Source: an uncultured Bacilli bacterium (GTDB lineage: Bacteria; Bacillota_I; Bacilli_A; RF39; UBA660). Taken from it: a DNA stretch of 64,000 nt. Positions 8,790 through 30,165 of the stretch are shown here, piece by piece; the stretch's first letter is position 1; each line of letters begins with the position of its first letter. A program made the translations under genes and the position numbers. The stretch spans positions 2,579 through 66,578 of the forward strand of contig CAKOXC010000004.1 in NCBI GenBank assembly GCA_934129945.1, in the 5' to 3' direction. The notes below the pieces were generated by a model, which made no database searches, was not told where the DNA came from, and was given only the letters and a program-made list of their open reading frames with translations.

Positions 8790-9647
8790 ATGGCAAATTT
8801 ATTAACAACAATTAAAAGATTTTTAGGTAATAAGAATACAGTAACAATTTTAGGAGTTATAGCCGGTGTATTAGTTATATACATTGGCTATAATTGGCGT
8901 GTAAAGCAAGCTATTAAACCTGTTACTGTACCTTATGCTAAAGTAGAAATATCTTCAAGAACTCAAATTACAGAAGATATGATTGGTTATATGGAGGTAT
9001 CAAGTAGTTTAGTTAACAATAGTCCTAACTTAATACAAAATGCTAGTCAAATAATCAATAATTATGCTGCTTATGGAGTAACTATCCCTGCAAATAGTTT
9101 ATTCTATACATCAGCTATAATGACTGAATCAGAAATGCCTGATTCTGCATTTGCAAATATTCCGGATGGATATACAATTTATTCATTATCTGTAGATTTA
9201 CATGATACATATGGAAACTCAATATACCCTGGTAATTATATTGATTTATATTTAAAAGCTACTGATGATAGTGGAAAAATTATATTTGGTAAATTAATTG
9301 AAAGTATTGAAGTATTAGCTGTAAAAGATAGTCAAGGAAATCATGTTTTTGAAACTACTGTAGAATCAAGAACACCTGCAGAATTATTATTTGCAGTACC
9401 TGATGATATGTACTTATTATTAATGAAAGCTGGATATGTTTCTGGTGGAGTGGATATACTTCCAGTACCAAGAAATGCATCATATTCTGCTAATCCTGGT
9501 GAAACTTCAGTTGCATCAGATTATATTAAGAACTTTATCTTATCTAAAACAGCAACAATCCCTGATAATGTTGTAACTAATACTACAAATAACAGTAATA
9601 CAAATAATGATAATACTACAAACAACAATAATAATAATAACGATTAA
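8790..9647 (+). CDS. cpaB: Flp pilus assembly protein CpaB (SAF + RcpC domains) with Asn-rich low-complexity C-terminal tail
   Basis: N-terminal TM; VTVPYAKVEISSRTQITEDMI (SAF-like); YSLSVDL...YPGNYIDLYL...IEVLAVKD...TPAELLFAVPDDMYLLLMKAGYVSGGVDILPVPR matches the CpaB core. Confidence 0.75.
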   Translation: MANLLTTIKRFLGNKNTVTILGVIAGVLVIYIGYNWRVKQAIKPVTVPYAKVEISSRTQITEDMIGYMEVSSSLVNNSPNLIQNASQIINNYAAYGVTIPANSLFYTSAIMTESEMPDSAFANIPDGYTIYSLSVDLHDTYGNSIYPGNYIDLYLKATDDSGKIIFGKLIESIEVLAVKDSQGNHVFETTVESRTPAELLFAVPDDMYLLLMKAGYVSGGVDILPVPRNASYSANPGETSVASDYIKNFILSKTATIPDNVVTNTTNNSNTNNDNTTNNNNNNND

Positions 9648-9680: not shown

Positions 9681-10973
9681 ATGAATGATGCTATATTCTC
9701 TCAGTTAGATTTTGGACCATTAAATGAATTTTTAATGGATGATAATGTTACCGATATTTCTTATAGTAACAATGGTCAAGTATTTTTAAAAACCTTAACT
9801 AAAGGTGTTTATAAAGTTGAAAGACCAGAGATAAATAATGCATTAATGGAAAAATTAGCATTTCAATGTTCTAATGTTATGGGTAAAACATTTAATATGG
9901 CTCATCCTTTTCTAGATGCAGAAAGTACAGAGTTACGTTTAAATTTCGTTCATGAATCAATTGCAACTAATGGAATAGCAGTATTAATTCGTAAAACACC
10001 TGCTAAAATTCGTTTAAATAGAGATAAATTATTAAGAGAAGATTATGTAACAGAGGATTTACTTAACTTCTTAATTGATTGTGTTCATGCTCGTTGTAAT
10101 ATTATAGTAAGTGGTGAAACTGGTTCAGGTAAAACAGAACTAGTCAAATATCTTGCAAGTAATACAAGAGAAGATGAAAAAATTATTTCAATAGAAGATA
10201 CTTTAGAGTTACACTTAGATAGAATTTATCCACATCGTGATATTGTTGCAATGAAAACTAATAATATTGCATCTTATACTGATGTACTTGTTACATGTAT
10301 GAGACAAAACCCAATATGGATATTACTTGCCGAGGTTCGTAGTGCTGAAGCAGTACTTGCAATCCGTAACTCAATATCTTCTGGACACCATATCATGTCA
10401 ACAATTCATGCTGACAAAGCTGCAAGTATTCCAATGCGTATGTATTCATTACTTGAATCAAGTCAAGATACAGATCAATTCTTATCTTCAATTCATAGAT
10501 ATGTTCAATTAGGAATATATGTTAAAGGTTACATGAGTAAAAAATATAATAGATTTCAACGTGAAATACTTGAAGTTTGTGAATTTTATGTTGATGATGA
10601 TAATAAACCATGTACAAATGAAATTTATAAAAAAAGTTTGGATGGAACAATGAGTTTCAATAATCCAACACAACATTTAAAAGATTATTGTAGTATTCAA
10701 GGAATTGATTTAGGTGATGATCCATTCCACTTGGTAACAGAAAAAAAATCAACAAATAATTTAAAAAATCCATTAGAAGAACAAACACCAACCACTTCTA
10801 ATGAAATAAAAAATGTTGATAAAGCTCCTGTTAATCAACAGGTGGAAGTAAAACCTATTAATTCTACTGTGGAAAACCCTACTGTTATCAACAGTGTTCC
10901 TACAAATCAAAATAATAATCAAATAAACAATATATCTAATATAAGTAATATAGATGTATTAGATATTATATAG
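9681..10973 (+). CDS. VirB11/CpaF(TadA)-family secretion ATPase with long low-complexity C-terminal tail
   Basis: Walker A VSGETGSGKTE; Asp box IISIEDTLELHL; Walker B/His box WILLAEVR...HHIMSTIHAD; about 100 aa N/Q/T-rich tail. Confidence 0.85.
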   Translation: MNDAIFSQLDFGPLNEFLMDDNVTDISYSNNGQVFLKTLTKGVYKVERPEINNALMEKLAFQCSNVMGKTFNMAHPFLDAESTELRLNFVHESIATNGIAVLIRKTPAKIRLNRDKLLREDYVTEDLLNFLIDCVHARCNIIVSGETGSGKTELVKYLASNTREDEKIISIEDTLELHLDRIYPHRDIVAMKTNNIASYTDVLVTCMRQNPIWILLAEVRSAEAVLAIRNSISSGHHIMSTIHADKAASIPMRMYSLLESSQDTDQFLSSIHRYVQLGIYVKGYMSKKYNRFQREILEVCEFYVDDDNKPCTNEIYKKSLDGTMSFNNPTQHLKDYCSIQGIDLGDDPFHLVTEKKSTNNLKNPLEEQTPTTSNEIKNVDKAPVNQQVEVKPINSTVENPTVINSVPTNQNNNQINNISNISNIDVLDII

Positions 10974-10995: not shown

Positions 10996-11889
10996 ATGGT
11001 ACTTATATTATTATTAGCAATTGCCATATATGTAGTTTCTTATAGATTAAATAAAGGTGAAAATGTTTATAAATTCTTTATTACCTCTGTACAAAATGCA
11101 TATGAAAAATACGCTCCATATTCTTTTAAAGAAGTTAGACAAAAAACTAAAGAATTAGGAAGAGAATATACAGCAAAACAATATGCAATACAAATAAGTA
11201 TAATTGGTGGGTTTGCTGGAGTTATATCATATTTGTATTTTTACAACGTTTTAATAACTATAATTTATGTAATAATAGCTATAGCTTTTATTCCTTATTT
11301 AGCATATTTAAGATGTCAAAAAGTATATAGTGAATATATATTTGAACAAATTCAAATATATACTACTAACGTTATTATGGAATTTAATACTACTCAATCA
11401 TTTGTTAAATCTTTAGAAGGTGTTAGAGATTCTGGTATCCTACTGGATCCAGTTTTACAAGATGTTAAAACTATGATTGATATGTCTTATCAAAATGGTA
11501 CAATTGATGAATCTATTGAATATTTTAATGCTAAATATCCATTCTATATGGTAAAAAATATGAATCAATTGTTTTTACAAATTACTAAAGAAGGTGCTAA
11601 AGATTCTGGTGAAGCATTAGAAAATATGGCAATGGATATAGATGCTTTAGTAGAAGGTGTTTATAGAGACCAAATGGATAGAGTAGAATTCCATAGAAAA
11701 TTCTTAACATTTGGTGTTGCATTATTCTTTCTAGTACTTGCAATGCAATTTTTATTAGGAACAGATTCATATATTGAACTATTAGATATGTTTTATGTTC
11801 AAATAATATTACATTTGATAATAATAATTAATGCTTATTTCTTATTATCTGGTGAAAAATTCTACAATGAAGATGTGGGGGTTGAGTAA
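10996..11889 (+). CDS. GspF/TadB-TadC-like inner-membrane platform protein (paralog 1)
   Basis: Topology of N-terminal TM, cytoplasmic helical domain and C-terminal TM pair; position immediately after the secretion ATPase as in tad loci. Confidence 0.55.
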   Translation: MVLILLLAIAIYVVSYRLNKGENVYKFFITSVQNAYEKYAPYSFKEVRQKTKELGREYTAKQYAIQISIIGGFAGVISYLYFYNVLITIIYVIIAIAFIPYLAYLRCQKVYSEYIFEQIQIYTTNVIMEFNTTQSFVKSLEGVRDSGILLDPVLQDVKTMIDMSYQNGTIDESIEYFNAKYPFYMVKNMNQLFLQITKEGAKDSGEALENMAMDIDALVEGVYRDQMDRVEFHRKFLTFGVALFFLVLAMQFLLGTDSYIELLDMFYVQIILHLIIIINAYFLLSGEKFYNEDVGVE

Positions 11890-11891
11890 TT

Positions 11892-12680
11892 ATGCATATA
11901 GAAATAGTTATTTTAGCAGCAATTATATTATTTGTTTTAAACTATACTGGAAGAATTAACGCTAATAGATTTATTACTGACAATACTGAATATTTTAGAA
12001 AATTAAAAGAAGACGATTGGGATTTTTTAGTAAAAGCTAGATATGGCGATGGAGCAAACCCAGACATATTATTTACTAAGAGAGTTCAAAATGCTGGAAT
12101 AGTATTAGTATTATGCTTATTTATCTTTATTTCTAACTTCAGTTATGCAACATTCTTAGTTTCATTAATTGCAGCCTATTTAATGTTTAAGTCTGGTTAT
12201 AGTAGTATGAAAAAGTATTATAAAAAACATTTGAGTGAAATAGATTCAATGTTACCACATTATTTAAAAAGTTTGGAAATATTAATTCAACACTATACAG
12301 TACCTGTTGCTATTGGTAAATCAATATCTGATGCTCCTGAAATATTTAGAGAAGGACTTCAAGAAATGATTAATGAAATTAATGCTGGTAATGATAAAAT
12401 AGATCCATACATGAATTTTGCTAAAGAATATCCAGTAAGAGATTCAATGAGAATGATGAGACTTTTATATCGTTTAAGTTTAGGTAAACAGGAACATAAA
12501 CAAGAACAATTATTAACATTCTCAAAAACAATATCTAATCTACAACAAAAAGCACGTGAAACACGTTATAAAAATAGATTAGATAAGATGGAAAGCAAAA
12601 CAATGTCAATGTTAATTACTACAGGTTTAGGAGTTATGATACTTTTAATATTTGCAGTATTACAAATGATGAATTTATAA
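11892..12680 (+). CDS. GspF/TadB-TadC-like inner-membrane platform protein (paralog 2)
   Basis: Same topology; T2SSF-like segment ...VPVAIGKSISDAPEIFREGLQEMINEINAGN...; 3-nt gap after the upstream paralog. Confidence 0.55.
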   Translation: MHIEIVILAAIILFVLNYTGRINANRFITDNTEYFRKLKEDDWDFLVKARYGDGANPDILFTKRVQNAGIVLVLCLFIFISNFSYATFLVSLIAAYLMFKSGYSSMKKYYKKHLSEIDSMLPHYLKSLEILIQHYTVPVAIGKSISDAPEIFREGLQEMINEINAGNDKIDPYMNFAKEYPVRDSMRMMRLLYRLSLGKQEHKQEQLLTFSKTISNLQQKARETRYKNRLDKMESKTMSMLITTGLGVMILLIFAVLQMMNL

Positions 12681-12751: not shown

Positions 12752-14239
12752 ATGAAAAAGAAAATAGAATCAATGTCAAGATTTTTTCCGTATATTTTAG
12801 GAATACTAATAATAGCTTTTGTATTAATCCAAAAATTTTCTCAAAATGATTTGTATTTTGATATAAGAACTGGAAAAGATATTTTAAAATATGGAATTGA
12901 TTTCAAAGATCATTTCAGTTTTATACCAGGATTAAAATATTTATACCATCATTGGTTTTATGATTTAATAATATATTTTATTTATACTAAATTTAATTAT
13001 GTTGGAGTATTTATTTTTTTCTATTCTCTGTATGTTTTATTTGGATTAATTTTATTTAAAACTAATTATAAGGCTGATAAGAATAAATTTTTATCATTTA
13101 TAGTTTCTATTATTACTTTATATTTAATGAAAGACTTTTTTGGAACACGAGTTCAATCGATTTCTTATATTATTTTCTTTTTAGAAATAATTTTTATAAA
13201 TAAACTTTATAACACAGGTGAAATAAAGTATTCAATAATATTAATTTTAATGTCAATATTGTTGGTTAACATTCATATGCCAGTTTGGATACTATATTTG
13301 ATTTTTTTCCTTCCATTTATCGCCGAAATATTATTTAGTAAATTTTCTAAATTATATAATAAAAATATTACAAATAAATTAATATTTTGTAATCCAAAGA
13401 ATTTGAAAATATTTTTAATAACTTTTATAGTGGTAATTCTAACAGGGTTAATTTCACCTTATAAATTTATGCCTTATATATTTTTTATCAAAACACTAGG
13501 AAATCCATATTATTCTTATATTGGAGAAATGCAAAAAACAATTTTAATTAATTCTATTCCATTTTTAATTATAGTATTTTGTTCTATTATTACTTTAATT
13601 TTTTGTAAAGTTAAAGCAAGAGACTTTTTCTTGATTTTTGGATTATTATTACTTGCATTATTTGCAAATAGACACAGATCCTACTTCTGTACAATTATTC
13701 CAACATTAATTTATAAAATAATTGTTGAAAACGATTTTAAAATAATAAAATTAAAATTACCTAATTTTAAAGTTAATACTACTCTTATAAGTTTTGTTTT
13801 AACTTTATTACTTATAATTTTATATGTAATGTGTTTCATAACATTAAATTTAAAAAAATTTAATTATCATGAAAATGAAAATTATCCAAATGAAACTATA
13901 AAATATATAAAAAAAAATATAGATAAAAAGAATTTAAGAATATACAATAATTTTAATATTGGATCATATCTTGCTTTTAATGATGTGCTAAATTTTGTTG
14001 ATTCAAGAGCAGAAGTTTTTATGGAAAATTTTAATAATAGTAAAGATATTTTAGAAGACATTTTTATTAATATAAAAAAATATGAAGATTACGAAAAAAT
14101 AATAAAAAAATATAACTTTAACTATATTTTGGTAGAAAAAGGTGAAATTTTAAATAGTTACATAAAAGATAAAGAAGACTATCAATTATTATATAATGAA
14201 AAAAATGAATACTTTTTATATAGTGTAAATCTAAAATAA
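12752..14239 (+). CDS. Large polytopic membrane protein (about 12 TM) with C-terminal soluble domain; possible GT-C-fold glycosyltransferase/pilin-modifying enzyme
   Basis: 495 aa, extremely hydrophobic; architecture resembles ArnT/PMT/YfhO-type lipid-linked-sugar transferases; no motif firmly identified. Confidence 0.4.
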   Translation: MKKKIESMSRFFPYILGILIIAFVLIQKFSQNDLYFDIRTGKDILKYGIDFKDHFSFIPGLKYLYHHWFYDLIIYFIYTKFNYVGVFIFFYSLYVLFGLILFKTNYKADKNKFLSFIVSIITLYLMKDFFGTRVQSISYIIFFLEIIFINKLYNTGEIKYSIILILMSILLVNIHMPVWILYLIFFLPFIAEILFSKFSKLYNKNITNKLIFCNPKNLKIFLITFIVVILTGLISPYKFMPYIFFIKTLGNPYYSYIGEMQKTILINSIPFLIIVFCSIITLIFCKVKARDFFLIFGLLLLALFANRHRSYFCTIIPTLIYKIIVENDFKIIKLKLPNFKVNTTLISFVLTLLLIILYVMCFITLNLKKFNYHENENYPNETIKYIKKNIDKKNLRIYNNFNIGSYLAFNDVLNFVDSRAEVFMENFNNSKDILEDIFINIKKYEDYEKIIKKYNFNYILVEKGEILNSYIKDKEDYQLLYNEKNEYFLYSVNLK

Positions 14240-14255: not shown

Positions 14256-14284
14256 TTGATAAATTGATTTATTAACGGTATAAT
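14256..14284 (+). promoter_or_regulatory. Near-consensus sigma-A promoter upstream of the pilin-like gene array
   Basis: TTGATA - 17 nt - TATAAT about 45 nt upstream of the 14329 start. Confidence 0.55.
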
Positions 14285-14328: not shown

Positions 14329-14556
14329 ATGAAAGAAGCAACAGGAGAATTAAATATGACAGTTGTAACAGTAGTTGCAATAGCAGCAATAGCAGCATTT
14401 TTCTATACATTCGTTTGGCCTGGAATTAAAGATAGTATTAAAAAAAATACTTGCGAAGCACAATGTTCAACAGGTGATAGTAGTTGTGTAAATACTTGTA
14501 TGAACAAAGATAATACCAATACTAATACTAATACTAATACTAATACTCAAGGTTAG
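14329..14556 (+). CDS. Small pilin-like protein (class-III-signal-like N-terminus, Cys-rich C-terminal domain, TN repeat tail)
   Basis: MKEATGELNMTVVTVVAIAAIAAFFYTF: short polar leader, Gly, then hydrophobic helix; 6 Cys; (TN)x6. Confidence 0.55.
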   Translation: MKEATGELNMTVVTVVAIAAIAAFFYTFVWPGIKDSIKKNTCEAQCSTGDSSCVNTCMNKDNTNTNTNTNTNTQG

Positions 14557-14603
14557 GAAATAATTTTTATTAATCATTAGAAAAATAGTAAGAAGGTAAT
14601 ATA

Positions 14604-14840
14604 ATGAAAGAGGCAACAGGAGAACTTAATATGACATTAGTTATTGTAATAGCAGTAGGAATCCTTGCTGCCTTTTTCTATACTGTTATATGGCCTTTAA
14701 TAGGTGATAATTTTGATAGAAATGCTAATTGTAGTAAAGCTATCTGTAAATGTGAAGGTACTTGTAAACAAGATGGGATTGCACAATGTTATATAAAAGG
14801 TAAAAAAAATAATGTTTTTGAGTGTCCTTGGAAAGGTTAA
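14604..14840 (+). CDS. Small pilin-like protein, paralog of the 14329 ORF
   Basis: Identical N-terminus MKEATGELNMT then hydrophobic helix; 8 Cys. Confidence 0.55.
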   Translation: MKEATGELNMTLVIVIAVGILAAFFYTVIWPLIGDNFDRNANCSKAICKCEGTCKQDGIAQCYIKGKKNNVFECPWKG

Positions 14841-14856
14841 TAGATAAGGTGATGTA

Positions 14857-15372
14857 ATGAGAGAAGCAATAGGTGGAACTTGGTTATTTAATTTAGTTAT
14901 TTTCTTTGTATTGCTATTTGCTGGTTATATGTGTTTATCTATTAACTATTCAAAAGCATTTGGTGTTAAGGATAAAATAATAAATGAACTCGAAAGAAAT
15001 GGTGGAGTTAAAGTATTTACAAACAGTAATTATACAGATATAGCTTTAACAAATATTTCTAATTATATGAAAAAAGTTGGCTATAGAACCAAAGGAAGTT
15101 GTAAAGGATACAGTTATGGTTGTACTTTGGACGGAAAATGTACTAGTGTTAATTCTAGTAATACTACAAAATATGCTTTTTGTTTATCTGAAGTAAAAGC
15201 AAATGATGCATATTCTTATGCAGTAAATGGGACTCCTGGAGAATTTATTTATGTAAGTTATTATAAGGTAAAAGTTTTTTATCAATTGGATTTACCTATT
15301 ATAAGAACAGCATTTGATTTCAATATAAAAGGAGATACAAAAATACTTTATAAAACAGCAAATAAACATTAA
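14857..15372 (+). CDS. Pilin-like/pseudopilin-like protein (171 aa)
   Basis: MREAIGGTWLFNLVIFFVLLFAGY leader+helix similar to the small pilins; Cys-containing globular domain. Confidence 0.5.
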   Translation: MREAIGGTWLFNLVIFFVLLFAGYMCLSINYSKAFGVKDKIINELERNGGVKVFTNSNYTDIALTNISNYMKKVGYRTKGSCKGYSYGCTLDGKCTSVNSSNTTKYAFCLSEVKANDAYSYAVNGTPGEFIYVSYYKVKVFYQLDLPIIRTAFDFNIKGDTKILYKTANKH

Positions 15373-15386
15373 TAGAAGGTGGTTAA

Positions 15387-15917
15387 ATGAGAGAAGCAAT
15401 AGGTGGAACGTGGCTTACACAACTTGTAATAATTATTATGTTTGTATTTGTAGCATTTTTAGCACTTTCTATGAATTATTCAAAAGCTTTTAGAGTTAAA
15501 AATGAATTGCTAAGTATTATTGAGAAAAAAGAAGGTATTTCTCAAACAAATAATGTAAATGGTAGTATATTTTTGATTAATAATTATTTGAAAAATAATG
15601 GTTATAGTACAGTTGGAAAGTGTGAAAAAGGAAGCTATGGATTTAATATAAATAGTGTACACGCAACATTAATTAATGATGGAAATAAAAATAAAAAGTT
15701 TAATTATTGTATTTCAAAAACTAAAAGTATTGCATCTAATTTCCCAAATAGAGCATATTATAAAGTTAAAATATTTTTTAAATTTAATCTACCAGTAGTT
15801 GGAGATATTTATACTTTTAAAGTTGATGGTGAAACAAAAGATGTTAATTATCCTAAAGATGGAAAATGTGGAAAAAATGATTCAATACAATGTGTAAAAT
15901 CAAATATTGATACATAG
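15387..15917 (+). CDS. Pilin-like/pseudopilin-like protein (176 aa), paralog of the 14857 ORF
   Basis: MREAIGGTWLTQLVIIIMFVFVAF...NYSKAF shared with the 14857 ORF. Confidence 0.5.
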   Translation: MREAIGGTWLTQLVIIIMFVFVAFLALSMNYSKAFRVKNELLSIIEKKEGISQTNNVNGSIFLINNYLKNNGYSTVGKCEKGSYGFNINSVHATLINDGNKNKKFNYCISKTKSIASNFPNRAYYKVKIFFKFNLPVVGDIYTFKVDGETKDVNYPKDGKCGKNDSIQCVKSNIDT

Positions 15918-15940: not shown

Positions 15941-16945
15941 ATGAATGTAATTATTTCAAATAAATATCAATCTTTGTTAGCAAATTTAGATATTGATGTA
16001 ATTAAAAGTATAAATGGAGAATTTGATGTTGAGGAAATTGTATCTAATTTTACTAATTTTTTCTTTAATAAAATGATTATAGATGTCACAGCTATAAAAA
16101 ATTATCAAGATATTAATACTTTTCAACAATTATCTGTAGGGCTTGACATGAATAAAATTATTTTACTACTTGATGATTCAGAAATTGTTAATTCCCCAAT
16201 GTTTTTGTCACAATTAGTTTCAATGGGAATTTATAATTTTACAAGAAATATCGATGCTGTTAAGTTTTTAATAGATAACCCTAATAGTTATAAAGATGTT
16301 GCTAGTTATCACCAATTAAGTAATATTCCTGTATCAACTCCTGAGACAGGTGTTTCACAACCTAATTATAATCGCTTAGGTTTACGTGTTATAGGTATTA
16401 AAAATGTTACTAACCATGCTGGTTCAACAACTCTTACTTATTTATTAAAAAAGCATTTGGAAAAATGTTATCAAGTTGTAGCAGTAGAAGTTGATAGCAA
16501 TGATTTTATGTATTTTAATGATAAAACTTTAAAAACAACTACTGCTTTAGACCTTCCATCATTTATTGCTACTAATTCTGGAAATGAAGTTATTTTAGTA
16601 GACTTAAATGATAAAGGTCCAATCAGTTCTTGTACTGAAGTTATTTATTTAATAGAGCCTGGTTTAATTAAATTAAATAAATTAATAAGAAAAGATCATA
16701 AAGCATTTGAAAAATTAAAAGATAAAAAAGTGGTATTAAATCGTAGTATATTAAATGATAGAGATGTTGCTGATTTTGAATATGAGTCAAAAAGTAGGGT
16801 ATTTTATAATATGCCTTATCTTGATGATAAGCTTGATAAAAGTGCTGCTGTTGATGAATTCTTAGTAAAATTAGGATTTAGTCGTCTAGAAAGTGACAAC
16901 GAAGAGTCAAAAGGTAGTAAATTATTTGGCATATTTAAGTCTTAA
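15941..16945 (+). CDS. CpaE/TadZ-like protein (ParA/MinD fold) with degenerate P-loop
   Basis: N-terminal receiver-like region then LRVIGIKNVTNHAGSTTLTYLL...VILVDL, which resembles a MinD-type deviant Walker A/B with the GKT lysine replaced. Confidence 0.4.
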   Translation: MNVIISNKYQSLLANLDIDVIKSINGEFDVEEIVSNFTNFFFNKMIIDVTAIKNYQDINTFQQLSVGLDMNKIILLLDDSEIVNSPMFLSQLVSMGIYNFTRNIDAVKFLIDNPNSYKDVASYHQLSNIPVSTPETGVSQPNYNRLGLRVIGIKNVTNHAGSTTLTYLLKKHLEKCYQVVAVEVDSNDFMYFNDKTLKTTTALDLPSFIATNSGNEVILVDLNDKGPISSCTEVIYLIEPGLIKLNKLIRKDHKAFEKLKDKKVVLNRSILNDRDVADFEYESKSRVFYNMPYLDDKLDKSAAVDEFLVKLGFSRLESDNEESKGSKLFGIFKS

Positions 16946-17005: not shown

Positions 17006-17389
17006 ATGAATAATTTATTTTTAATAGCAGGTATTGGTACTGGAACTTTACAAAATGGTTTTTGTTCTGCTTCTGCTGATATTTGGCAAGTAGTTGGATA
17101 TGTATTATTAATATTTAAAATTGTTATTCCAGTAATATTAATTATTATGGGAATGATTGATTTAGGAAAAGCTGTTGTTGCTGGTAAAGATGATGAAATA
17201 AAAAAATATACAAAGTCATTAGCAATCAGAGGAGTTTCAGCAGTATTAATATTCTTTGTTCCTACTATTATCGGATTAATAATGGGTTTAGTTGGTAATT
17301 TTACAACTAGTGGAGCAGAGGCAGATTTTAAAGTTTGTAGAACTTGTATTACTAGTCCTAGTAAATGTGCAGTTACTAATCAAGATTAA
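17006..17389 (+). CDS. VirB2/TrbC-like pilin family protein (paralog A) with CxxC-x5-C tail
   Basis: Two TM helices separated by a short charged loop (IWQVVGYVLLIFKIVIPVILIIMGMIDLGKAVVAGKDDEIKKYTKSLAIRGVSAVLIFFVPTIIGLIMGL), then KVCRTCITSPSKC. Confidence 0.5.
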   Translation: MNNLFLIAGIGTGTLQNGFCSASADIWQVVGYVLLIFKIVIPVILIIMGMIDLGKAVVAGKDDEIKKYTKSLAIRGVSAVLIFFVPTIIGLIMGLVGNFTTSGAEADFKVCRTCITSPSKCAVTNQD

Positions 17390-17413
17390 AAGCATTTTAT
17401 TGCTTTTTTTTTA
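17388..17413 (+). terminator. Weak rho-independent terminator after VirB2-like paralog A
   Basis: AAAGCA-loop-TGCTTT then T9; followed by a TGTTATACTTAAA extended -10-like element. Confidence 0.4.
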
Positions 17414-17455
17414 TTCATTTGTTATACTTAAATAGTATTAAAGTGAGGTTAAAAT

Positions 17456-18085
17456 ATGAAAAAAATTAAAATTGTAATTATGATATTAGCAGTTGTATCT
17501 ACATTAAGTTTTACAAATGTTTATGCAGTTTCTAAAAATAGTAAAACTTATAAAAATTGTATCGCTAAATGTGACAAATTTAAAAATAAAAATGGTAAGG
17601 TAAAGAAAAATCAAAAGCAAGCATATAATGCGTGTATGTCTCCATGTAATGCCAAACTTGATAAAACTGAAGCAAATAAAAATGTTGAAAATTTAAATAA
17701 GAACAAAAATAATAGTAACAAAACTTCTACAACAACTAACCTAGATTTTTGTGCTTCAACAGCTTCAATATGGCAAATAGTAGGTTGGGTATTTTTAATA
17801 GTTAAAATAATTATTCCAGTATTATTAATTATTTTTGGAGTAAAAGATTTTGCGCAAGCTGTAGTATCTTCAAAAGATGATGATATAAAGAAAGCTGCTA
17901 AAGCACTTATGACACGAGGTATAGCGGCTGTTGCTATTTTCTTTGTACCAACTATTGTGAGTTTAATAATGGGATTAATTGTAGATTTTACAAGTAGTGG
18001 TGCAAAAGCAGATTTTGATATTTGTCAATCATGTATGTTAAAGCCATCAGCTTGTGATATAAGTAAAGATGTTGGAAAGCAATAA
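17456..18085 (+). CDS. VirB2/TrbC-like pilin family protein (paralog B) with Cys-rich N-terminal extracellular domain
   Basis: Signal peptide; IWQIVGWVFLIVKIIIPVLLIIFGVKDFAQAVVSSKDDDIKKAAKALMTRGIAAVAIFFVPTIVSLIMGL then DICQSCMLKPSAC. Confidence 0.5.
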   Translation: MKKIKIVIMILAVVSTLSFTNVYAVSKNSKTYKNCIAKCDKFKNKNGKVKKNQKQAYNACMSPCNAKLDKTEANKNVENLNKNKNNSNKTSTTTNLDFCASTASIWQIVGWVFLIVKIIIPVLLIIFGVKDFAQAVVSSKDDDIKKAAKALMTRGIAAVAIFFVPTIVSLIMGLIVDFTSSGAKADFDICQSCMLKPSACDISKDVGKQ

Positions 18086-18105
18086 AATATTGCTTCTTTT
18101 TTTTG
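18075..18105 (+). terminator. Rho-independent terminator after VirB2-like paralog B
   Basis: GAAAGCAATA-loop-TATTGCTTC then T8; followed by a TGGTATACTTAAAA extended -10-like element. Confidence 0.55.
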
Positions 18106-19269
18106 TTTTTGGTATACTTAAAATACAAGAGAATAGGTGATAAAATGAGTGAATTTTTAGATAATTTAAGAAATATGGATGATGAAAGTAAAAAGAAGAT
18201 TAAACTATTAGGAATAGGTTTAATTGGTTTTATTATGTTAATAATAATAATTGCAATAATTGTTGCAATTATTAATCGAAAAACGTCTTATGAGGATATG
18301 GAAATTATCATGAGTAAAGCTGCTTATTCTTATTATCAAGATAATTTAGGAAAATTACCTACTGAGTCTTCAAAGACTTCAGTTGTTGATGAGACAACTT
18401 TAGTTAATGGTAAATACATGAAAAGTATTAAAAAATATACAAAAGATGAAACTTGTAAGGGACGTGTTGAAGTAACATATAATAATGGTGATTTTGATTA
18501 TCAAACATATCTTACATGTAATTCATTTACTACTATTTTATTAAAAGATCAAATAAAAAAAGATAATTTATTAGTAACTAGTGGTGCAGGATTATATGAT
18601 GAAAATGGCATTTTAAGATTTAGAGGTGAAAAGTTAAACAATTATCTTAAAGTAAAAAATACTATTTATAGAATAATAAAGATAGATAATGAAGATAAAA
18701 TTTATATTATTCCTGAAAATATGGATGATAATGATGAAAAAGTTTTTGTTTATTGGGATGATAGATATAATTCTGAGGAACAAATAAATTGTGGTATAAA
18801 TGATTATTCTCTAAGTAGAATTAAAGATTCATTAGATGTTATATATAATAGTTTAGATAAAGAATTAAAAGCAAAAACAACGAATTTTACTGCATGTGTT
18901 GCTAATAGATCAGAAAATGACATAATAAATACAGGAGATATTGAATGTAGTAAAAAAATAGAAAATTCAACAATAAGTTTATTGCCTATTTATGAATATA
19001 TTAGAGCCAGTATAGCTCCAGCATGTCAAACCACATCTTCAAAAGAGTGTAAAAATTATAATTATATGTATACAGATTCATATATGTGGTGGAGTGGAAC
19101 AGGAGATTCAACAAATACTGATAAAATTTATTCGGTAAATTATTCTGGTGAAATTGATAAAGATAGAGGAAATTCTAGAAAAGTTGCTAGATATGTTGTA
19201 GCTTTAAAAGGAAATACTTTATTAAAAGAAGGTAATGGTACTAAAAAAAGTCCATATCAAATTAGATAA
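18103..19269 (+). CDS. Bitopic membrane protein with large extracytoplasmic domain; VirB8/TcpC-like scaffold candidate
   Basis: Short cytoplasmic N-terminus, single TM (LLGIGLIGFIMLIIIIAIIVAII), about 330 aa Cys-containing ectodomain. Confidence 0.35.
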   Translation: MFLVYLKYKRIGDKMSEFLDNLRNMDDESKKKIKLLGIGLIGFIMLIIIIAIIVAIINRKTSYEDMEIIMSKAAYSYYQDNLGKLPTESSKTSVVDETTLVNGKYMKSIKKYTKDETCKGRVEVTYNNGDFDYQTYLTCNSFTTILLKDQIKKDNLLVTSGAGLYDENGILRFRGEKLNNYLKVKNTIYRIIKIDNEDKIYIIPENMDDNDEKVFVYWDDRYNSEEQINCGINDYSLSRIKDSLDVIYNSLDKELKAKTTNFTACVANRSENDIINTGDIECSKKIENSTISLLPIYEYIRASIAPACQTTSSKECKNYNYMYTDSYMWWSGTGDSTNTDKIYSVNYSGEIDKDRGNSRKVARYVVALKGNTLLKEGNGTKKSPYQIR

Positions 19270-19345
19270 AATTTAATGTTTTATCTTTTTTTGCATTTTT
19301 AAGAAAAATATTTATTTTAATAGACAAAGTATTATGATATAATGA

Positions 19346-20491
19346 ATGTATATGAATAGAGGTTTTAATATGGATAAAAAATGCTTGAAATATATTTTTA
19401 ATAGCTTAATTATATTTATTTTATTTGGAATTATTAATGTTGAAGCTTCTGTAGAATGCAGTTACAATTATTCTTATAATAGAAATGATATGATTATAAA
19501 AATAAATTCTGATGGAGCAAAGGTAACCGCTAATAATACTTCAATTGATATTGCTTATGGTAAAGTAGAACAATTATCTTTAGCTGATGGTTCAATAGTA
19601 AATATTAAAGTTGATAATTCTTTAAAAAATAAATTTGCTAGTTTTACAAATTGTTTTGACAGTATTGGATTTGTTGAAACGCTTGAAACAGGTAATTTAA
19701 CAATTAAAGATAGTTGTACTGGTTATGCTGGGGATGCTTCTAAATGTTCAAATTTGCAAGGAACTGGTACAACAACTGGAAATACTACTCAAACAACAAG
19801 TACAAAAACTACTATCAATTTTACTACAACTGATAATGTAAGTGGAGTTTTAGGAGTAAATGAAAATGGTAAGTATTATTTAAAAATAAATAATGATAAC
19901 AATACAATAACATATGATCCTACTGCTGAGTTTGCATTTAATTATGGTAATAAAAGCTATAGAATTGATCCTGATACAAAAGATAATATTTTTAAATCAA
20001 GTTCAAGTTCAGTTAAACTTTATGCCTTAGATTCTGGAACGGGTGGAAATAACTGGCTACTTTCTTTAAATTCAAGTAAAGATGGTTATACAACTCCTGC
20101 TGATGTTAGTGGAAGACAAGATTACAAAGTTAATGTAAAGAAAAATAAAAATAAACTTGATTCAGCTGACTTCAAAGGAATTTGTTCTGAAGACAGTGTA
20201 CGTAAAGTTTTTCAAATTATGGGTTATGTGCTTTTAATTGCTAAAATAGCTGTTCCAATTTGTTTAATTATATTTGGGGTAGTGACACTTGTTAAAGTTG
20301 TAATATCTGGAGAACAAGAAGCATTAAGGAAGGCTGTAAAGAATTTAGGAATAAAAGCTTTAGCAGCTGTTATAATATTTATACTTCCTACAATAATTTA
20401 CTATATAACAAATTTAGTTAGTGGAAATAGTAGTGATACAAAAGTTTATGGATATTGCAAAACATGTTTATTTGAACCTAAAAAATGCTAG
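19346..20491 (+). CDS. Secreted protein with large N-terminal domain fused to a C-terminal VirB2/TrbC-like module (paralog C)
   Basis: Signal peptide; ECSY module as in the 4752 ORF; C-terminus VFQIMGYVLLIAKIAVPICLIIFGVVTLVKVVISGEQEALRKAVKNLGIKALAAVIIFILPTII then GYCKTCLFEPKKC. Confidence 0.5.
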   Translation: MYMNRGFNMDKKCLKYIFNSLIIFILFGIINVEASVECSYNYSYNRNDMIIKINSDGAKVTANNTSIDIAYGKVEQLSLADGSIVNIKVDNSLKNKFASFTNCFDSIGFVETLETGNLTIKDSCTGYAGDASKCSNLQGTGTTTGNTTQTTSTKTTINFTTTDNVSGVLGVNENGKYYLKINNDNNTITYDPTAEFAFNYGNKSYRIDPDTKDNIFKSSSSSVKLYALDSGTGGNNWLLSLNSSKDGYTTPADVSGRQDYKVNVKKNKNKLDSADFKGICSEDSVRKVFQIMGYVLLIAKIAVPICLIIFGVVTLVKVVISGEQEALRKAVKNLGIKALAAVIIFILPTIIYYITNLVSGNSSDTKVYGYCKTCLFEPKKC

Positions 20492-20500
20492 GAGGTTTTT

Positions 20501-20842
20501 ATGAAAAAAATAAAAAATATTTTATTAATAACAATTTGTTTATTTCCATTAAATGTCTTTGCTGGAAGTAATGATTGTGTAGAAATTTTTGGAAAGAATT
20601 CTCAAACTCTTGAATATTTACAAGATATATATTCTTTTTTAAAGTTTCTAGTACCAATAATACTTTTAGCTATGAGTGTTAAAGATTTTGTCTTAGCAAT
20701 TGCTAAAGAGCAAGCTGATGATGTAAAAAAAGCAACTAATACTTTATTTAAAAGAATTATTATTGCAGTATTAATTTTAATTATACCAACAATTTTGAAT
20801 TTCTTCTTAAAGTTGATTGGATATAGTACTTGTACTTTATAA
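20501..20842 (+). CDS. Small VirB2/TrbC-like protein (paralog D)
   Basis: Signal peptide, then a two-TM hairpin with charged loop (FLVPIILLAMSVKDFVLAIAKEQADDVKKATNTLFKRIIIAVLILIIPTIL). Confidence 0.45.
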   Translation: MKKIKNILLITICLFPLNVFAGSNDCVEIFGKNSQTLEYLQDIYSFLKFLVPIILLAMSVKDFVLAIAKEQADDVKKATNTLFKRIIIAVLILIIPTILNFFLKLIGYSTCTL

Positions 20843-20869
20843 ATATAAATAAAAAAGGAGGTAATTATT

Positions 20870-23080
20870 ATGCTAATTGGTAACTTTATGACAAGCTTAT
20901 TTAATGTTGCAAAATATGGATTTTTTAGCATATTTTTATACATAGATTCAGTTGTATATAAAATAGTTAGTATGCTATTTTCAGTATTTTTCTCATTAGC
21001 TGAATTACAACTTTTAAAAGACGATGCTTACCAAGCTATTTCAAGTAGAATTTACTTATTAGTAGGAATAGTTGCCCTTTTTTCAATTACTATTTCATTA
21101 TTAAAAGCGTTAGTTAATCCAGATAATTTAGGTAAAGGAACTATATCTTCATTTAAAAATCTTATAGTTTCAATGTTACTAGTTATTTTAATGCCAACTA
21201 TATTTAAATATGCATTTTCATTTCAAGCAGCAATAATTAACGATGGAGTTATTAATAATCTTTTTAATTTTAGTATAACAACTGGTAAAAATGAAATGGT
21301 TAATGAATGTAATAATCCAAAAGATGTTTCAGTTAATACAGCTGATAATGAAACGTTAAGTTCAGAAATTAATATGACAGTTGATGAATGTCAAGCAAAT
21401 TATATTACAATGACAGTTTTACAAGCATTTTTTTCACCTTCAAATGATAATGTAACTAATAATTATGGTACAACATGGAAAGATGCTAGAAGATATATAT
21501 GGTATACAGGTGATTTTGATTATATAGCCACATTTGCTGAACAAGTAAATAAAGGAGATAGCAATAGTTATATAACATATTATATTATTATTACTACTAT
21601 TGCTGGATTCTTCTTAGGATATGTTGTTTTGTCTTTTTGTCTAGATTTAGGAATAAGAGCATTTAAATTAGCATTTTACGAATTAATTGCTCCATTACCA
21701 ATACTTATGAAAATAGTTCCAGGTCAAGAAGGTAAATTTGACAAATGGAGAAAAGAAGTTGTTAGTACTTTCTTAGAAGTGTTTGTAAGATTAATTATAA
21801 TAAGCTTTATAATATTTATGTGTGGTAATTTATTTGATTTAATAAAAAATTTAAGTTGGGGTGAGACAGGACCAGGATTATTAGCAAAAGCAATTTTAGC
21901 TTTAGGTTTATTTGCCTTTGCAAAACAAGCACCAAAACTATTAAAGGATGCTTTAGGTTTAGACGGTTCAGGTGTAAAATTTGGAATCAAAGGAAAACTT
22001 ACAGATGTACCTGTTGCTGGAAAAGCATTCGCTGCAGGTTACGGTGTGGCTAGTAAATTAAAGAATTCTGCAACAGGAGCTATTTCAGGTGGACTTGGTG
22101 CCGGATGGTCTTCAATGGTAAATAAAAATGGTTTTGCTAATGGATTTAGATATGGAGCTGCAAAAGGTGCTAAAAATGGTGGAAATCAGTTTAACTCTCA
22201 ACGAAGAGATATGTATACTAGATATGGTGGTAAAGGAGTTGCTGGTGCATTTGGTGGTCAAGCGTATTTTGACAAAAAAGCAGATGCTGCTGATAAAGCT
22301 GCTAAAAATGATATTAAAGAAAGATTTAGAAATTCACAAACTTATAATAATATGTTAGATCAAATGTTATTTAGTAAAAATCAAGAAATGATGGCTAATA
22401 GACAGCATCAAGTTGATACTAAAAAGATTCTTGATAATTATAATAAAAATATTAGTGATTATGAAAGTTCAGGAGAGTTTAGTGGTATAATGGCTTCTTT
22501 TGAAAATGAAGCTAGAGAAAAAGCTACAAGAACAGTATCTGAAAAAGTAAAAAGTGGTCAAATGACAGCACAAGAAGGCAAAAATGAAGTTGAAAGATTA
22601 ACTAATTTAATGCAAAAAGCTTCAGCTGTAAATTATTTAAAAGAACAGGCTGCTAAAGGCACAGCTACCGAAGCCTCAAAAAGATATTTATCAGCTGTTG
22701 AAAATTTAACAAGTGCTAAAAATGATTATTTAAATGCTAAAAATCTTCAAACTACTATTTCAGAAGAGGATAAAGAATTAGCTAAAAAAGCTACTGATGA
22801 ATTCTTTAGACATACTGATAATAAGAACAAAGAACTTGGCTCTGGTACTTTAGGAAAAGCGTTCCAAGAAGTATTAAGAAGCGAATACAGTAATAGTTTA
22901 AGTAATAATGATGATGTCTTGAAAATGGCTCAAGCAATGAAAATGGCTCAAGCTGGCGGTGGAGCTCCAAATGGAAGTAATTTAAATCCTAGTGCACCTA
23001 ATGGTGGTGGACCAGGTGGCGGACCAAAACCTGGAGGGCCAGATGCCAAAGGACCAGCTGAACCTGGTGATAAGAAATAA
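20870..23080 (+). CDS. VirB6/TrbL(TcpH)-like polytopic channel protein with Gly/Pro-rich C-terminal tail
   Basis: 736 aa; multiple TM helices in the N-terminal two thirds; coiled-coil region; GGGAPNGSNLNPSAPNGGGPGGGPKPGGPDAKGPAEPG tail as in many TrbL proteins. Confidence 0.55.
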   Translation: MLIGNFMTSLFNVAKYGFFSIFLYIDSVVYKIVSMLFSVFFSLAELQLLKDDAYQAISSRIYLLVGIVALFSITISLLKALVNPDNLGKGTISSFKNLIVSMLLVILMPTIFKYAFSFQAAIINDGVINNLFNFSITTGKNEMVNECNNPKDVSVNTADNETLSSEINMTVDECQANYITMTVLQAFFSPSNDNVTNNYGTTWKDARRYIWYTGDFDYIATFAEQVNKGDSNSYITYYIIITTIAGFFLGYVVLSFCLDLGIRAFKLAFYELIAPLPILMKIVPGQEGKFDKWRKEVVSTFLEVFVRLIIISFIIFMCGNLFDLIKNLSWGETGPGLLAKAILALGLFAFAKQAPKLLKDALGLDGSGVKFGIKGKLTDVPVAGKAFAAGYGVASKLKNSATGAISGGLGAGWSSMVNKNGFANGFRYGAAKGAKNGGNQFNSQRRDMYTRYGGKGVAGAFGGQAYFDKKADAADKAAKNDIKERFRNSQTYNNMLDQMLFSKNQEMMANRQHQVDTKKILDNYNKNISDYESSGEFSGIMASFENEAREKATRTVSEKVKSGQMTAQEGKNEVERLTNLMQKASAVNYLKEQAAKGTATEASKRYLSAVENLTSAKNDYLNAKNLQTTISEEDKELAKKATDEFFRHTDNKNKELGSGTLGKAFQEVLRSEYSNSLSNNDDVLKMAQAMKMAQAGGGAPNGSNLNPSAPNGGGPGGGPKPGGPDAKGPAEPGDKK

Positions 23081-23098
23081 AAGGAGGAATAAAAAGGG

Positions 23099-25744: not shown

Positions 25745-25748
25745 TAGT

Positions 25749-25782
25749 ACTTTACACTATTAAAAAGTGTAAAGTTTTTTTC
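25749..25782 (+). terminator. Rho-independent terminator after VirB4
   Basis: ACTTTACAC-loop-GTGTAAAGT then T7. Confidence 0.65.
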
Positions 25783-25821
25783 CTTATTGTAAAGTAAAAG
25801 AATGTATGTTAAAATATAGTC

Positions 25822-27369: not shown

Positions 27370-27370
27370 A

Positions 27371-27604: not shown

Positions 27605-27628
27605 AAGCTTGAACCTAAGCTTTTTTTC
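27604..27628 (+). terminator. Rho-independent terminator
   Basis: AAGCTT-gaacct-AAGCTT palindromic hairpin then T7. Confidence 0.6.
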
Positions 27629-30154: not shown

Positions 30155-30165
30155 AAAGGAATAAA

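What the first reader, a model, noticed from the sequence alone, without database searches (positions are those of the whole stretch)
14329..15917. Pilin-like gene array with an unusual conserved N-terminus M[KR]EA[TI]G
Two short (75 and 78 aa) and two longer (171 and 176 aa) proteins begin MKEATGELNMT... or MREAIGGTWL..., followed by an about 20-residue hydrophobic helix, then Cys-rich globular parts. This looks like a class III (prepilin) signal. It fits neither the Flp motif (G/XXXXEY) nor the T4aP/ComGC motif (G/FTLxE). No prepilin peptidase gene is in the window. The array sits behind a near-consensus promoter and after the platform genes, as flp does in tad loci.
Basis: seen in the sequence. 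Interest (0 to 1): 0.7.

Follow-up and report, generated by a model that had tools for sequence, protein, structure and literature searches.

The report
Unannotated pilin-like genes beside a conjugation system
Four adjacent genes encode two very widespread, unannotated families of pilin-shaped surface proteins with an almost invariant six-residue start, sitting between a pilus-type ATPase module and a DNA-transfer (type IV secretion) module in uncultured gut bacteria, with no known pilin-processing enzyme nearby.

Summary
ORFs 14329-14556, 14604-14840, 14857-15372 and 15387-15917 start MKEATGELNMT or MREAIGGTWL, followed by a hydrophobic helix and a Cys-containing domain.

They belong to two large families with no Pfam or NCBIfam model: small pilins (sPil, 2279 hits) and larger pilins (LPil, 1398 clusters at 50% identity). 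The start is nearly invariant at protein level. Only sPil, LPil and DUF5411 carry it in 81 clustered loci.

The array usually lies between a CpaB-like/T2SSE-ATPase module and a monoderm T4SS. No A24 peptidase appears in 93 loci.

The two supposed platform proteins show no T2SSF similarity. Flp, TadE and N-methyl pilin models do not match.

A neighbouring CPBP protease looked like a replacement peptidase. Its gene pair also occurs without the system, in one case in the window's own chromosomal backbone.

Most likely these are subunits of a divergent type-IV-filament-like fibre serving the T4SS. Whether and how the start is processed is unknown.

The parts
14256..14284 (+). Promoter-like site TTGATA-17 nt-TATAAT ahead of the array
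   Evidence: 11 of 12 matches, joint best in 12600-17100. The total number of such sites equals the shuffled expectation, so this is weak evidence.
14329..14556 (+). sPil-A, 75 aa small pilin-like protein: MKEATGELNMT, a hydrophobic helix ending in W30-P31, a 4-Cys head, and a C-terminal (Asn-Thr)6 tail
14604..14840 (+). sPil-B, 78 aa paralogue (46% identical to sPil-A) with a 6-Cys head ending CPWKG
14857..15372 (+). LPil-A, 171 aa larger pilin-like protein starting MREAIGGTWL; modelled as an N-terminal helix plus beta-sheet head
15387..15917 (+). LPil-B, 176 aa paralogue (35-37% identical to LPil-A)
15941..16945 (+). 334 aa protein that always follows LPil. It has a weak P-loop (CbiA/ParA-like) match with a degenerate Walker A. 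It may be TadZ-like, but this is unproven.
   Evidence: PF01656, E 0.002, below cut-off; 76 of 81 loci; no match to solved structures
8353..8766 (+). DUF5411 protein (137 aa), the third family carrying the N-terminal signature (MKEVYWGYWL)
   Evidence: PF17424, 8e-55
8790..9647 (+). CpaB/RcpC-like protein (weak, below the curated cut-offs)
   Evidence: PF16976, 5e-6, 26.8 bits against a cut-off of 28.8; TIGR03177, 8.6e-7
9681..10973 (+). T2SSE-family secretion ATPase (VirB11/TadA-like)
   Evidence: PF00437, 2.3e-26; VirB11 8e-32, conjugal-transfer-associated TadA 1.5e-30
10996..11889 (+). 297 aa polytopic membrane protein in the position of TadB; highly conserved (at least 7995 relatives) with no recognisable family
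11892..12680 (+). 262 aa polytopic membrane protein in the position of TadC; no recognisable family
12752..14239 (+). 495 aa protein with about 9 transmembrane segments in a variable cargo slot just before the array. It is accessory, being present in only 4 of 81 loci.
4752..8332 (+). Two secreted Cys-rich proteins that open the upstream module: p250 (signal peptide plus C-terminal anchor ending KRSRLI) and a 943 aa protein
4161..4613 (-). Membrane-anchored PedC/TrbB-like thioredoxin. It travels with the island and is the likely disulfide catalyst for the Cys-rich exported proteins.
3456..4157 (-). CPBP (Rce1/MroQ-like) intramembrane glutamic protease with intact motifs, the only membrane protease near the array. 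It belongs to a CPBP-phosphoesterase pair that also occurs without the system.
17006..33258 (+). Monoderm-type T4SS block: four T4SS_pilin paralogues, a VirB6-like protein, VirB3-like, TraC-like, VirB4, an M23/lysozyme cell-wall hydrolase and the VirD4 coupling protein

Best explanation
The four genes encode subunits of a divergent fibre or pseudopilus that resembles a type IV filament. The two small proteins (sPil-A and sPil-B) are proposed as the bulk subunits. They are about as small as Flp pilins, have a conserved hydrophobic stem, and carry a hypervariable disulfide-bonded head. The two larger proteins (LPil-A and LPil-B) are proposed as minor or priming subunits.

All of them, together with the DUF5411 protein upstream, carry a dedicated N-terminal signature, M-[KR]-E-[AS]-x-[G/S/A or W], directly ahead of a transmembrane helix. 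The proposed sequence of events is as follows. The proteins insert with the N-terminus in the cytoplasm and the C-terminus outside. Their heads are oxidised outside the membrane, probably by the island's membrane-anchored thioredoxin. They are then extracted from the membrane and polymerised by the upstream module, which comprises the T2SSE ATPase, the CpaB-like protein and two conserved polytopic membrane proteins. The fibre would serve the adjacent monoderm T4SS, either in cell contact or in crossing the cell wall. This would resemble the way the IncI thin pilus or the PAPI-1 type IV pilus serves conjugation.

If the N-terminus is cleaved after Gly6, the enzyme is not encoded in the locus. 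A PilD-type peptidase encoded elsewhere in the host genome is the most conservative candidate.

Shown here: the sequence features, the conservation, the genomic context, and the absence of an A24 gene nearby. Inferred: polymerisation, membrane topology, any processing, and the role in DNA transfer.
For: 1. Signature. It is nearly invariant and conserved at protein level. In 81 loci it is carried by exactly three families: LPil 146 of 150, sPil 144 of 151, DUF5411 49 of 51.
2. Position 6. In 149 LPil cluster representatives it is G in 122, S in 20 and A in 3. The leader length is fixed at 6, as in T4a pilins.
4. sPil conservation pattern. The stem is conserved, the head is hypervariable, and the Cys count is even in 254 of 256 sequences.
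5. Modular relatives. Some LPil relatives carry C-terminal Peptidase_M15 or Listeria-Bacteroides repeat domains. From my own knowledge, this resembles the modular minor pilins of Streptococcus sanguinis.
6. Context. A T2SSE ATPase (PF00437, 2.3e-26) and a weak CpaB/RcpC match lie upstream. The upstream module is directly adjacent in 54 of 69 loci with enough sequence. T4SS families lie downstream in 49 of 61.
7. Thioredoxin. A PedC/TrbB-like thioredoxin travels with the island.
8. Precedent for a shared peptidase. Type IV filament loci can lack their own prepilin peptidase and borrow one; all MSH loci do so (PMC6668835). Relatives of these hosts do encode canonical pilins and PilD/PilC.
Against: - No pilin family model matches: not Flp, TadE or N_methyl.
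- The two membrane proteins after the ATPase show no T2SSF signal by HMM, by profile or against a genuine PilC, and no mutual paralogy.
- The ATPase scores as well against VirB11 as against TadA, so it could belong to the T4SS.
- One array variant (one sPil, one LPil, the ParA-like gene) sits among T4SS genes with no ATPase module within 10 kb. Conversely, the ATPase module can stand alone without the array.
- There is no acidic residue at +5. The leader is net-neutral, and it is more conserved than the mature start, unlike known prepilins.
Confidence: 0.55

Rival explanations
1. The proteins are not filament subunits. They are uncleaved bitopic membrane proteins forming fixed structural parts of the monoderm T4SS envelope complex, for instance a wall-spanning scaffold. 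The conserved MKEA/MREA start would be a cytoplasmic docking tag for the VirB11-like ATPase or the ParA-like protein.
For: - The most conserved residues are the extreme N-terminal ones (M, K/R, E, A/S). DUF5411 lacks Gly at position 6.
- One array variant is embedded among the T4SS_pilin, VirB6 and VirB4 genes with no ATPase module within 10 kb.
- The ATPase matches VirB11 best.
- No platform homology was found.
- Fold matches to pilins are weak.
Against: - The sPil heads are hypervariable, which fits exposed fibre subunits better than channel parts.
- LPil relatives carry adhesin-type and wall-hydrolase modules.
- The array has two sPil and two LPil paralogues, as in pili built from several subunits.
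Confidence: 0.2
2. They are pilin-like subunits, but their leader is removed by the neighbouring CPBP (Rce1/MroQ-type) intramembrane glutamic protease rather than by an A24 aspartyl peptidase.
For: - The CPBP gene is the only membrane protease near the array.
- Its catalytic motifs EExxFR, FxxxH and HxxxN are conserved in 15 orthologues.
- Its best NCBIfam match is MroQ at 9.4e-12 over the full length. MroQ removes the N-terminal leader of membrane-associated AgrD (PMC9388083).
- It lies next to the island in 16 of 19 loci with enough sequence, and in three different arrangements, including directly after the ParA-like gene in L062.
- 13% of LPil clusters have Ser at the presumed -1 position. 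From my own knowledge, PilD handles Ser there poorly.
Against: - The same co-directional CPBP-phosphoesterase pair occurs with no system gene within 8 kb in L093, L098, L101 and L104.
- L104 shows the window's own backbone (FtsW, EIIB-like, CotZ-like, phosphoesterase, CPBP) without the island. At least part of the adjacency therefore reflects a conserved chromosomal neighbourhood.
- The variant-2 loci have no CPBP nearby.
- The MroQ match is far below the family cut-off.
Confidence: 0.12
3. The small proteins are bacteriocin-like or pheromone-like Cys-rich peptides, matured by the thioredoxin and CPBP genes, and are not structural proteins.
For: - The thioredoxin matches the PedC/BrcD bacteriocin-maturation isomerases.
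- From my own knowledge, CPBP proteins often accompany bacteriocin loci.
- The peptides are small, Cys-rich and variable.
Against: - No double-glycine leader, C39/ABC exporter or immunity gene is present.
- The conserved part is a 20-residue membrane helix shared with two larger families.
- Synteny with the ATPase and T4SS modules is strict across 81 loci.
- The CPBP gene belongs to the chromosomal backbone.
Confidence: 0.03

Closest known systems
Tad/Flp pilus system (Flp pilin, TadE/TadF pseudopilins, CpaB/RcpC, TadZ, TadA, TadB, TadC, TadV)
   Same: The major-type subunits are small. There are two larger pseudopilin-like proteins, each with one N-terminal helix. The upstream gene order is CpaB-like, T2SSE ATPase, then two polytopic membrane proteins of about the size of TadB and TadC. 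A P-loop-like protein is present as well.
   Different: There is no G/XXXXEY motif and no Flp or TadE model match. The membrane proteins have no T2SSF domain. No TadV gene is present. The leader is fixed at 6 residues and is itself conserved. The heads are Cys-rich. The array is embedded in a T4SS island.
Type IVb thin pilus of IncI plasmids (R64, TP114) and the PAPI-1 type IV pilus
   Same: A type IV filament module is genetically linked to a conjugative T4SS and serves mating (PMC12857230; PMC7508951).
   Different: Those systems are in diderms. They have canonical prepilins, their own A24 peptidase (PilU in R64, from my own knowledge) and recognisable PilC-type platforms.
Type IV pili and Com pseudopili of monoderms (Streptococcus sanguinis PilE1/PilE2 and the modular minor pilins PilB/PilC; ComGC)
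   Different: Those pilins have G/FTLxE N-termini, are processed and methylated by PilD or ComC, and have no T4SS linkage.
The DUF5411/CpaF/PilC 'secretion-related operon' predicted in Roseburia, Ruminococcus and Eubacterium (Miller et al. 2022, PMC9523054)
   Same: It shares the DUF5411 protein and a CpaF-type ATPase in gut Firmicutes, and it is explicitly uncharacterised.
   Different: That operon was reported to have a recognisable PilC/GspF protein. Neither the pilin array, nor its N-terminal signature, nor the T4SS linkage was described.
Monoderm and Patescibacteria T4SS with clusters of VirB2-like T4SS_pilin genes; Mycoplasma ICE transfer genes
   Same: The adjacent block has four PF18895 paralogues and gives weak matches to the Mbov_0395, 0396 and 0397 families.
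   Different: Those pilins have two helices and are VirB2-like. The sPil and LPil families are unrelated to them.

Membership tests
Type IV filament superfamily (criteria of Denise et al. 2019, PMC6668835) | Assembly ATPase of the T2SSE/PilB/TadA family | tested here: met
   PF00437 at 2.3e-26 and 92.8 bits, above the cut-off. It cannot be told apart from VirB11.
Type IV filament superfamily (criteria of Denise et al. 2019, PMC6668835) | Inner-membrane platform protein with a T2SSF (PF00482) domain | tested here: not met
   No T2SSF hit for either membrane protein or for any of the 51 members scanned, i.e. the window's 297 aa protein and 50 relatives. No match to solved structures. No similarity to a genuine PilC. 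The AlphaFold model was too poor to judge the fold.
Type IV filament superfamily (criteria of Denise et al. 2019, PMC6668835) | Pilin with a short N-terminal leader followed by a hydrophobic alpha-1 helix and a globular head | tested here: inconclusive
Type IV filament superfamily (criteria of Denise et al. 2019, PMC6668835) | A24 prepilin peptidase (this may be shared from elsewhere in the genome) | tested here: not met
   None in the window. No GxGD motif in any polytopic ORF across 93 loci and 1.55 Mb. The pattern was validated on a true PilD. The rest of the genome could not be searched.
Flp pilin (PF04964, motif G/XXXXEY) | Gly at -1, followed by Glu at +5 and Tyr at +6 of the mature protein | tested here: not met
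   After Gly6 the sequence is ELNMTVV, with no E5-Y6. There is no Pfam hit.
TadE/TadF pseudopilins (PF07811) | TadE-like N-terminal domain | tested here: not met
   No PF07811 hit among the 120 sequences scanned (the window's two LPil and 118 relatives) at E up to 1.
T4aP/ComGC-type pilins (N_methyl, G/FTLxE) | G/F(M)TLxE with Glu at +5 | tested here: not met
   The sequence does not fit and no Pfam or NCBIfam hit was found. A canonical pilin from a host genome (KKGFTLVELL) shows what a match would look like.
Tad locus accessory proteins | CpaB/RcpC and TadZ (ParA-like protein with an atypical receiver domain) | tested here: inconclusive
   CpaB: PF16976 at 26.8 bits against a cut-off of 28.8, and TIGR03177 at 28.5 against 71. 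ParA-like protein: only CbiA at E 0.002, with no match to solved structures.
Class III signal peptide (functional class) | Cleavage at the cytoplasmic face after a small residue that precedes the helix | not testable with these tools
   Position 6 is G, S or A in 145 of 149 LPil clusters, but it is Trp in DUF5411. The mature N-termini are unknown.

The most novel reading that the evidence does not exclude
The M-[KR]-E-[AS] start marks a new class of pilin signal. It would either be never cleaved, or be cleaved by a non-A24 enzyme such as the neighbouring CPBP glutamic intramembrane protease. It would feed a filament machine whose membrane platform is unrelated to PilC/TadB/TadC. This machine would be a regular partner of a monoderm T4SS in thousands of gut Bacilli lineages. 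That would make it a cell-wall-crossing or mating fibre for Gram-positive DNA transfer, something not previously described.
Probability: 0.3. Interest if true: 0.85.

Novelty: new variant of a known kind. Interest (0 to 1): 0.68.

Why it matters
Monoderm conjugation systems are generally described as lacking pili. How they make contact with recipients and cross a thick cell wall is an open question (reviewed in PMC12857230).

This module is pilin-like and very abundant: 2279 sPil hits (clusters at 90% identity), 1398 LPil clusters at 50% identity, and at least 7995 relatives of the 297 aa membrane protein. It is regularly wedged between a secretion ATPase module and a T4SS in uncultured gut Bacilli. 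None of its three signature-bearing families has a known function.

If these proteins form a fibre, this would be a widespread Gram-positive counterpart of the IncI and PAPI-1 mating pili. If the signature is processed by something other than an A24 peptidase, or not processed at all, it would extend the rules for type IV filament biogenesis. At the least, it defines two large families that deserve database models, and a short motif that finds them.

Tried and rejected
1. The conserved EATGE as a nucleotide-level Shine-Dalgarno for an internal Met10 start. Rejected because synonymous changes destroy the AGGAG while the peptide is kept.
2. The 495 aa membrane protein as a hidden peptidase or core part. 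Rejected because it occurs in only 4 of 81 loci. The slot holds other cargo elsewhere.
3. The CPBP protease as a dedicated system component. At first it looked strong. It was then weakened when the CPBP-phosphoesterase pair was found in housekeeping contexts without the system, including the window's own backbone.
4. The C-terminus of p250 as a MYXO-CTERM-like, Cys-bearing sorting signal for the CPBP protease. There is no invariant Cys. The tail is a transmembrane helix plus KKRSRVL. Variant-2 analogues instead carry SPxTG sortase-like signals.
6. Global homology among sPil, LPil and DUF5411. hhalign aligns only the N-termini, with P of 0.0046 and 0.048.
7. Reaching the tail of the LPil family to bridge to TadE. 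The best 150 of 1398 clusters are all at E below 1e-29, so the tail was not seen.
8. The plasmid collection gave no DNA or protein match.
9. The afdb50 structure library was unavailable.
10. A relaxase or integrase in the island. None was detected by Pfam among the ORFs scanned, so whether the island is a mobile ICE or a fixed chromosomal locus is undecided.
Full report
**1. What is in the sequence**

One search confirms four consecutive + strand ORFs at 14329-14556 (75 aa), 14604-14840 (78 aa), 14857-15372 (171 aa) and 15387-15917 (176 aa). I call the first two sPil (small pilin-like) and the last two LPil (larger pilin-like). The sPil proteins begin MKEATGELNMT and the LPil proteins begin MREAIGGTWL. 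Each start is followed by about 20 hydrophobic residues and a Cys-containing domain.

The window has about 25% G+C. Its flanks are chromosomal (FtsW, SpoVAD, TsaD, GlmS), so it comes from a low-GC spore-forming Firmicute.

**2. The motif is real and selected at protein level**

The AGGAG inside the EATGE codons raised the possibility of an internal start at Met10. In orthologues those codons change synonymously while the peptide stays the same, so the conservation is at protein level.

- A profile of six sPil sequences finds 2279 proteins (E up to 0.01). None has a Pfam domain or a name. 96 of the best 120 start exactly MKEATGELNMTV.
- LPil-A finds 416 proteins, all hypothetical. MREAIGGTW is invariant in a diverse set of 21.
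- An exhaustive profile search finds 1398 LPil clusters at 50% identity. Their first residues read M-[RK]-[ED]-[SA]-[IVFY]-[G 122, S 20, A 3]-[G/A/S]. The leader length is fixed at six.
- In sPil, residues 1-9, W30, P31 and four Cys are almost invariant. The rest of the head varies by 2-3.4 bits per site. The number of Cys is even in 254 of 256 sequences.

**3. Known families do not match**

- Pfam and NCBIfam give nothing for any of the four proteins.
- A Pfam scan of 120 LPil sequences (the window's two plus 118 relatives) gave only noise, with no TadE match.
- Profile searches of the sequences of solved structures give nothing.
- The sequence after Gly6 (ELNMT, or GTWLF) fits neither G/XXXXEY nor G/FTLxE.

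**4. Structure**

AlphaFold2 with 120 sequences gives an LPil model of moderate confidence (pLDDT 79, pTM 0.72). It has a continuous helix over residues 5-48, a second helix, and a four- to five-stranded sheet. This is the general shape of a type IV pilin.

So the fold evidence is supportive but weak.

**5. Context in the window**

From left to right:

| Coordinates | Strand | Gene product |
|---|---|---|
| 2605-4157 | minus | CPBP protease and metallophosphoesterase pair |
| 4161-4613 | minus | membrane-anchored thioredoxin |
| 4752-8332 | plus | two secreted Cys-rich proteins |
| 8353-8766 | plus | DUF5411 |
| 8790-9647 | plus | weakly CpaB/RcpC-like protein |
| 9681-10973 | plus | T2SSE ATPase, equally close to VirB11 and TadA |
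| 10996-12680 | plus | two polytopic membrane proteins (297 and 262 aa) |
| 12752-14239 | plus | 495 aa membrane protein |
| 14329-15917 | plus | the pilin-like array |
| 15941-16945 | plus | weakly ParA-like protein |
| 17006-33258 | plus | monoderm T4SS: four T4SS_pilin paralogues, VirB6-like, VirB3-like, TraC-like, VirB4, M23/lysozyme hydrolase, VirD4 |

No relaxase or integrase was recognised.

**6. Conservation of the neighbourhood**

A scan of species-representative genomes gave 80 loci, all from uncultured gut Bacilli, 'Tenericutes' or Erysipelotrichaceae MAGs. Clustering all ORFs shows an invariant core: sPil (1-3 copies), LPil (1-2 copies) and the ParA-like gene.

- The ATPase module lies directly upstream in 54 of 69 loci with enough sequence.
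- T4SS families lie downstream in 49 of 61.
- The 495 aa protein is in only 4 loci. Elsewhere that slot holds a GT2 plus a large polytopic protein, a BclA_C-like protein, or an LRR protein.
- A second variant has one sPil, one LPil and the ParA-like gene among T4SS genes, with no ATPase module within 10 kb.
- In a common human-gut lineage the ATPase module stands alone, without the array.
- The N-terminal signature followed by a hydrophobic helix is carried by exactly three families: LPil (146 of 150), sPil (144 of 151) and DUF5411 (49 of 51).
- Profile-profile comparison aligns these families only over their N-termini.

**7. The platform question**

The 297 aa protein has at least 7995 relatives, all unnamed. 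Every test for platform identity was negative or uninformative:

- No T2SSF signal in it or in 50 relatives.
- No hit among solved structures.
- No paralogy with the 262 aa protein.
- No similarity to a genuine PilC found by chance in locus L093.

The 'platform' label is therefore unproven.

**8. The peptidase question**

No A24 peptidase is in the window. None appears among the Pfam-annotated neighbours of the related contigs. No polytopic ORF in 93 loci (1.55 Mb) carries the GxGD[x][KR] motif. That pattern does recognise a true PilD.

The only membrane protease nearby is the CPBP enzyme at 3456-4157. Its catalytic motifs are conserved, and its best family match is MroQ, far below the cut-off. 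It adjoins the island in 16 of 19 informative loci and in three different arrangements.

However, a metagenome scan shows the same CPBP-phosphoesterase pair in housekeeping contexts with no system gene within 8 kb. One of these, L104, has the window's own backbone (FtsW, EIIB-like, CotZ-like, phosphoesterase, CPBP) without the island. So this remains a lead rather than a finding.

The thioredoxin behaves differently. It travels with the island and is absent from those island-free contexts.

Denise et al. note that type IV filament loci may borrow a peptidase from elsewhere in the genome (PMC6668835). Related hosts do encode canonical pilins and PilD.

**9. Interpretation**

The best reading (confidence 0.55) is that these are subunits of a divergent, type-IV-filament-like fibre or pseudopilus associated with a monoderm T4SS. 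The small proteins would be bulk subunits and the larger ones minor subunits. Some relatives of the larger family carry Peptidase_M15 or Listeria-Bacteroides repeat modules.

Whether the six-residue start is cleaved, and by what, is open. The leader itself is the most conserved part, and DUF5411 has Trp at position 6. Either could mean no cleavage or an unusual enzyme.

The rivals are:
- fixed T4SS scaffold proteins (0.2);
- CPBP-dependent processing (0.12);
- bacteriocin-like peptides (0.03).

**10. Novelty**

The literature held here has no description of these families. The closest is a 2022 language-model prediction of a DUF5411/CpaF/PilC operon in Clostridia (PMC9523054). A late-2025 T4SS review does not mention Tad at all, and it calls Patescibacteria unique among monoderms in their potential to make conjugative pili (PMC12857230).

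I classify this as a new variant of a known kind, with a 0.3 chance that the signal and machine are more deeply new.

Noticed in passing
window 14511-14547: An in-frame hexanucleotide tandem repeat (TAATAC, 6.2 copies) encodes the (Asn-Thr)6 tail of sPil-A. Orthologues in L001 and L003 lack it. It could vary the tail length by slippage without a frameshift.
   Followed up: partly
window 12752-14239: A 495 aa protein with about 9 transmembrane segments fills a variable slot just before the pilin array and is present in only 4 of 81 loci. In other loci the slot holds a GT2 plus an 836 aa polytopic protein (from my reading of the sequence, YfhO-like), a BclA_C-like protein, or a 554 aa LRR protein. 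This might be pilin glycosylation or other cargo. No family or solved-structure match was found.
   Followed up: partly
window 17006-17389, 17456-18085, 19346-20491, 20501-20842: Four paralogues carry the VirB2-like T4SS_pilin domain (PF18895): three by weak Pfam hits, and the fourth (19346-20491) by clustering and its C-terminal sequence. The neighbouring VirB6-like, TraC-like and 388 aa proteins weakly match the Mycoplasma ICE families Mbov_0396, 0397 and 0395. A multi-pilin cluster of this kind was recently highlighted for Patescibacteria.
   Followed up: partly
window 4161-4613 (minus strand): A membrane-anchored thioredoxin (PedC-like; weak matches to the F-type TrbB and TraF pilin-assembly isomerases) travels with the island. 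In L008 it sits after the ParA-like gene. It is absent where the CPBP-phosphoesterase pair occurs without the island.
   Followed up: yes
window 241-4157; L104, L091: A conserved chromosomal backbone (FtsW, a small ORF, an EIIB-like gene, a CotZ-like spore-coat gene, a metallophosphoesterase, then the CPBP protease) is shared with contigs that have the island (L091) or lack it (L104). This suggests a stable insertion point rather than recent mobility. No integrase or relaxase was seen.
   Followed up: partly
proteins P0393, P0398, P0405, P0499-P0501, P0474 (LPil relatives): Some LPil relatives carry C-terminal Peptidase_M15 (D-Ala-D-Ala dipeptidase-type) or Listeria-Bacteroides repeat domains. 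One is a tandem LPil-LPil fusion.
   Followed up: partly
L085-L088 (metagenome contigs, human gut): The upstream module (p252, the large Cys-rich protein, DUF5411, two CpaB-like genes, the ATPase and both membrane proteins) stands alone next to the CPBP-phosphoesterase pair. It is followed by amidoligase, rhodanese, RmuC and BacA genes, with no pilin array or T4SS within 10 kb.
   Followed up: no
L062:9465-13975: A minimal island on a 1.26 Mb contig holds two sPil, two LPil, the ParA-like gene, and then the phosphoesterase, CPBP and thioredoxin genes on the opposite strand. It lies between polysaccharide genes and priA, with no ATPase or T4SS nearby. It could be a remnant or a minimal unit.
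   Followed up: partly
L068-L084 variant loci (for example L068:7267-7809): In variant-2 loci the small surface protein that replaces p250 ends in an SPxTG-type motif plus a transmembrane helix and a basic tail, resembling a sortase sorting signal. The p250 family instead ends in a conserved helix plus KKKRSRVL.
   Followed up: no
window 14652-14671: The only terminator-like hairpin in 12600-17100 lies inside the sPil-B coding region, in the part encoding the hydrophobic helix. It is probably a chance match.
   Followed up: no
L093:11829-14037 (minus strand): A canonical PilD (GGGDIK, CxxC pairs) and a 474 aa PilC lie 3 kb from a CPBP-phosphoesterase pair on a low-GC metagenome contig. They served as positive controls.
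   Followed up: yes
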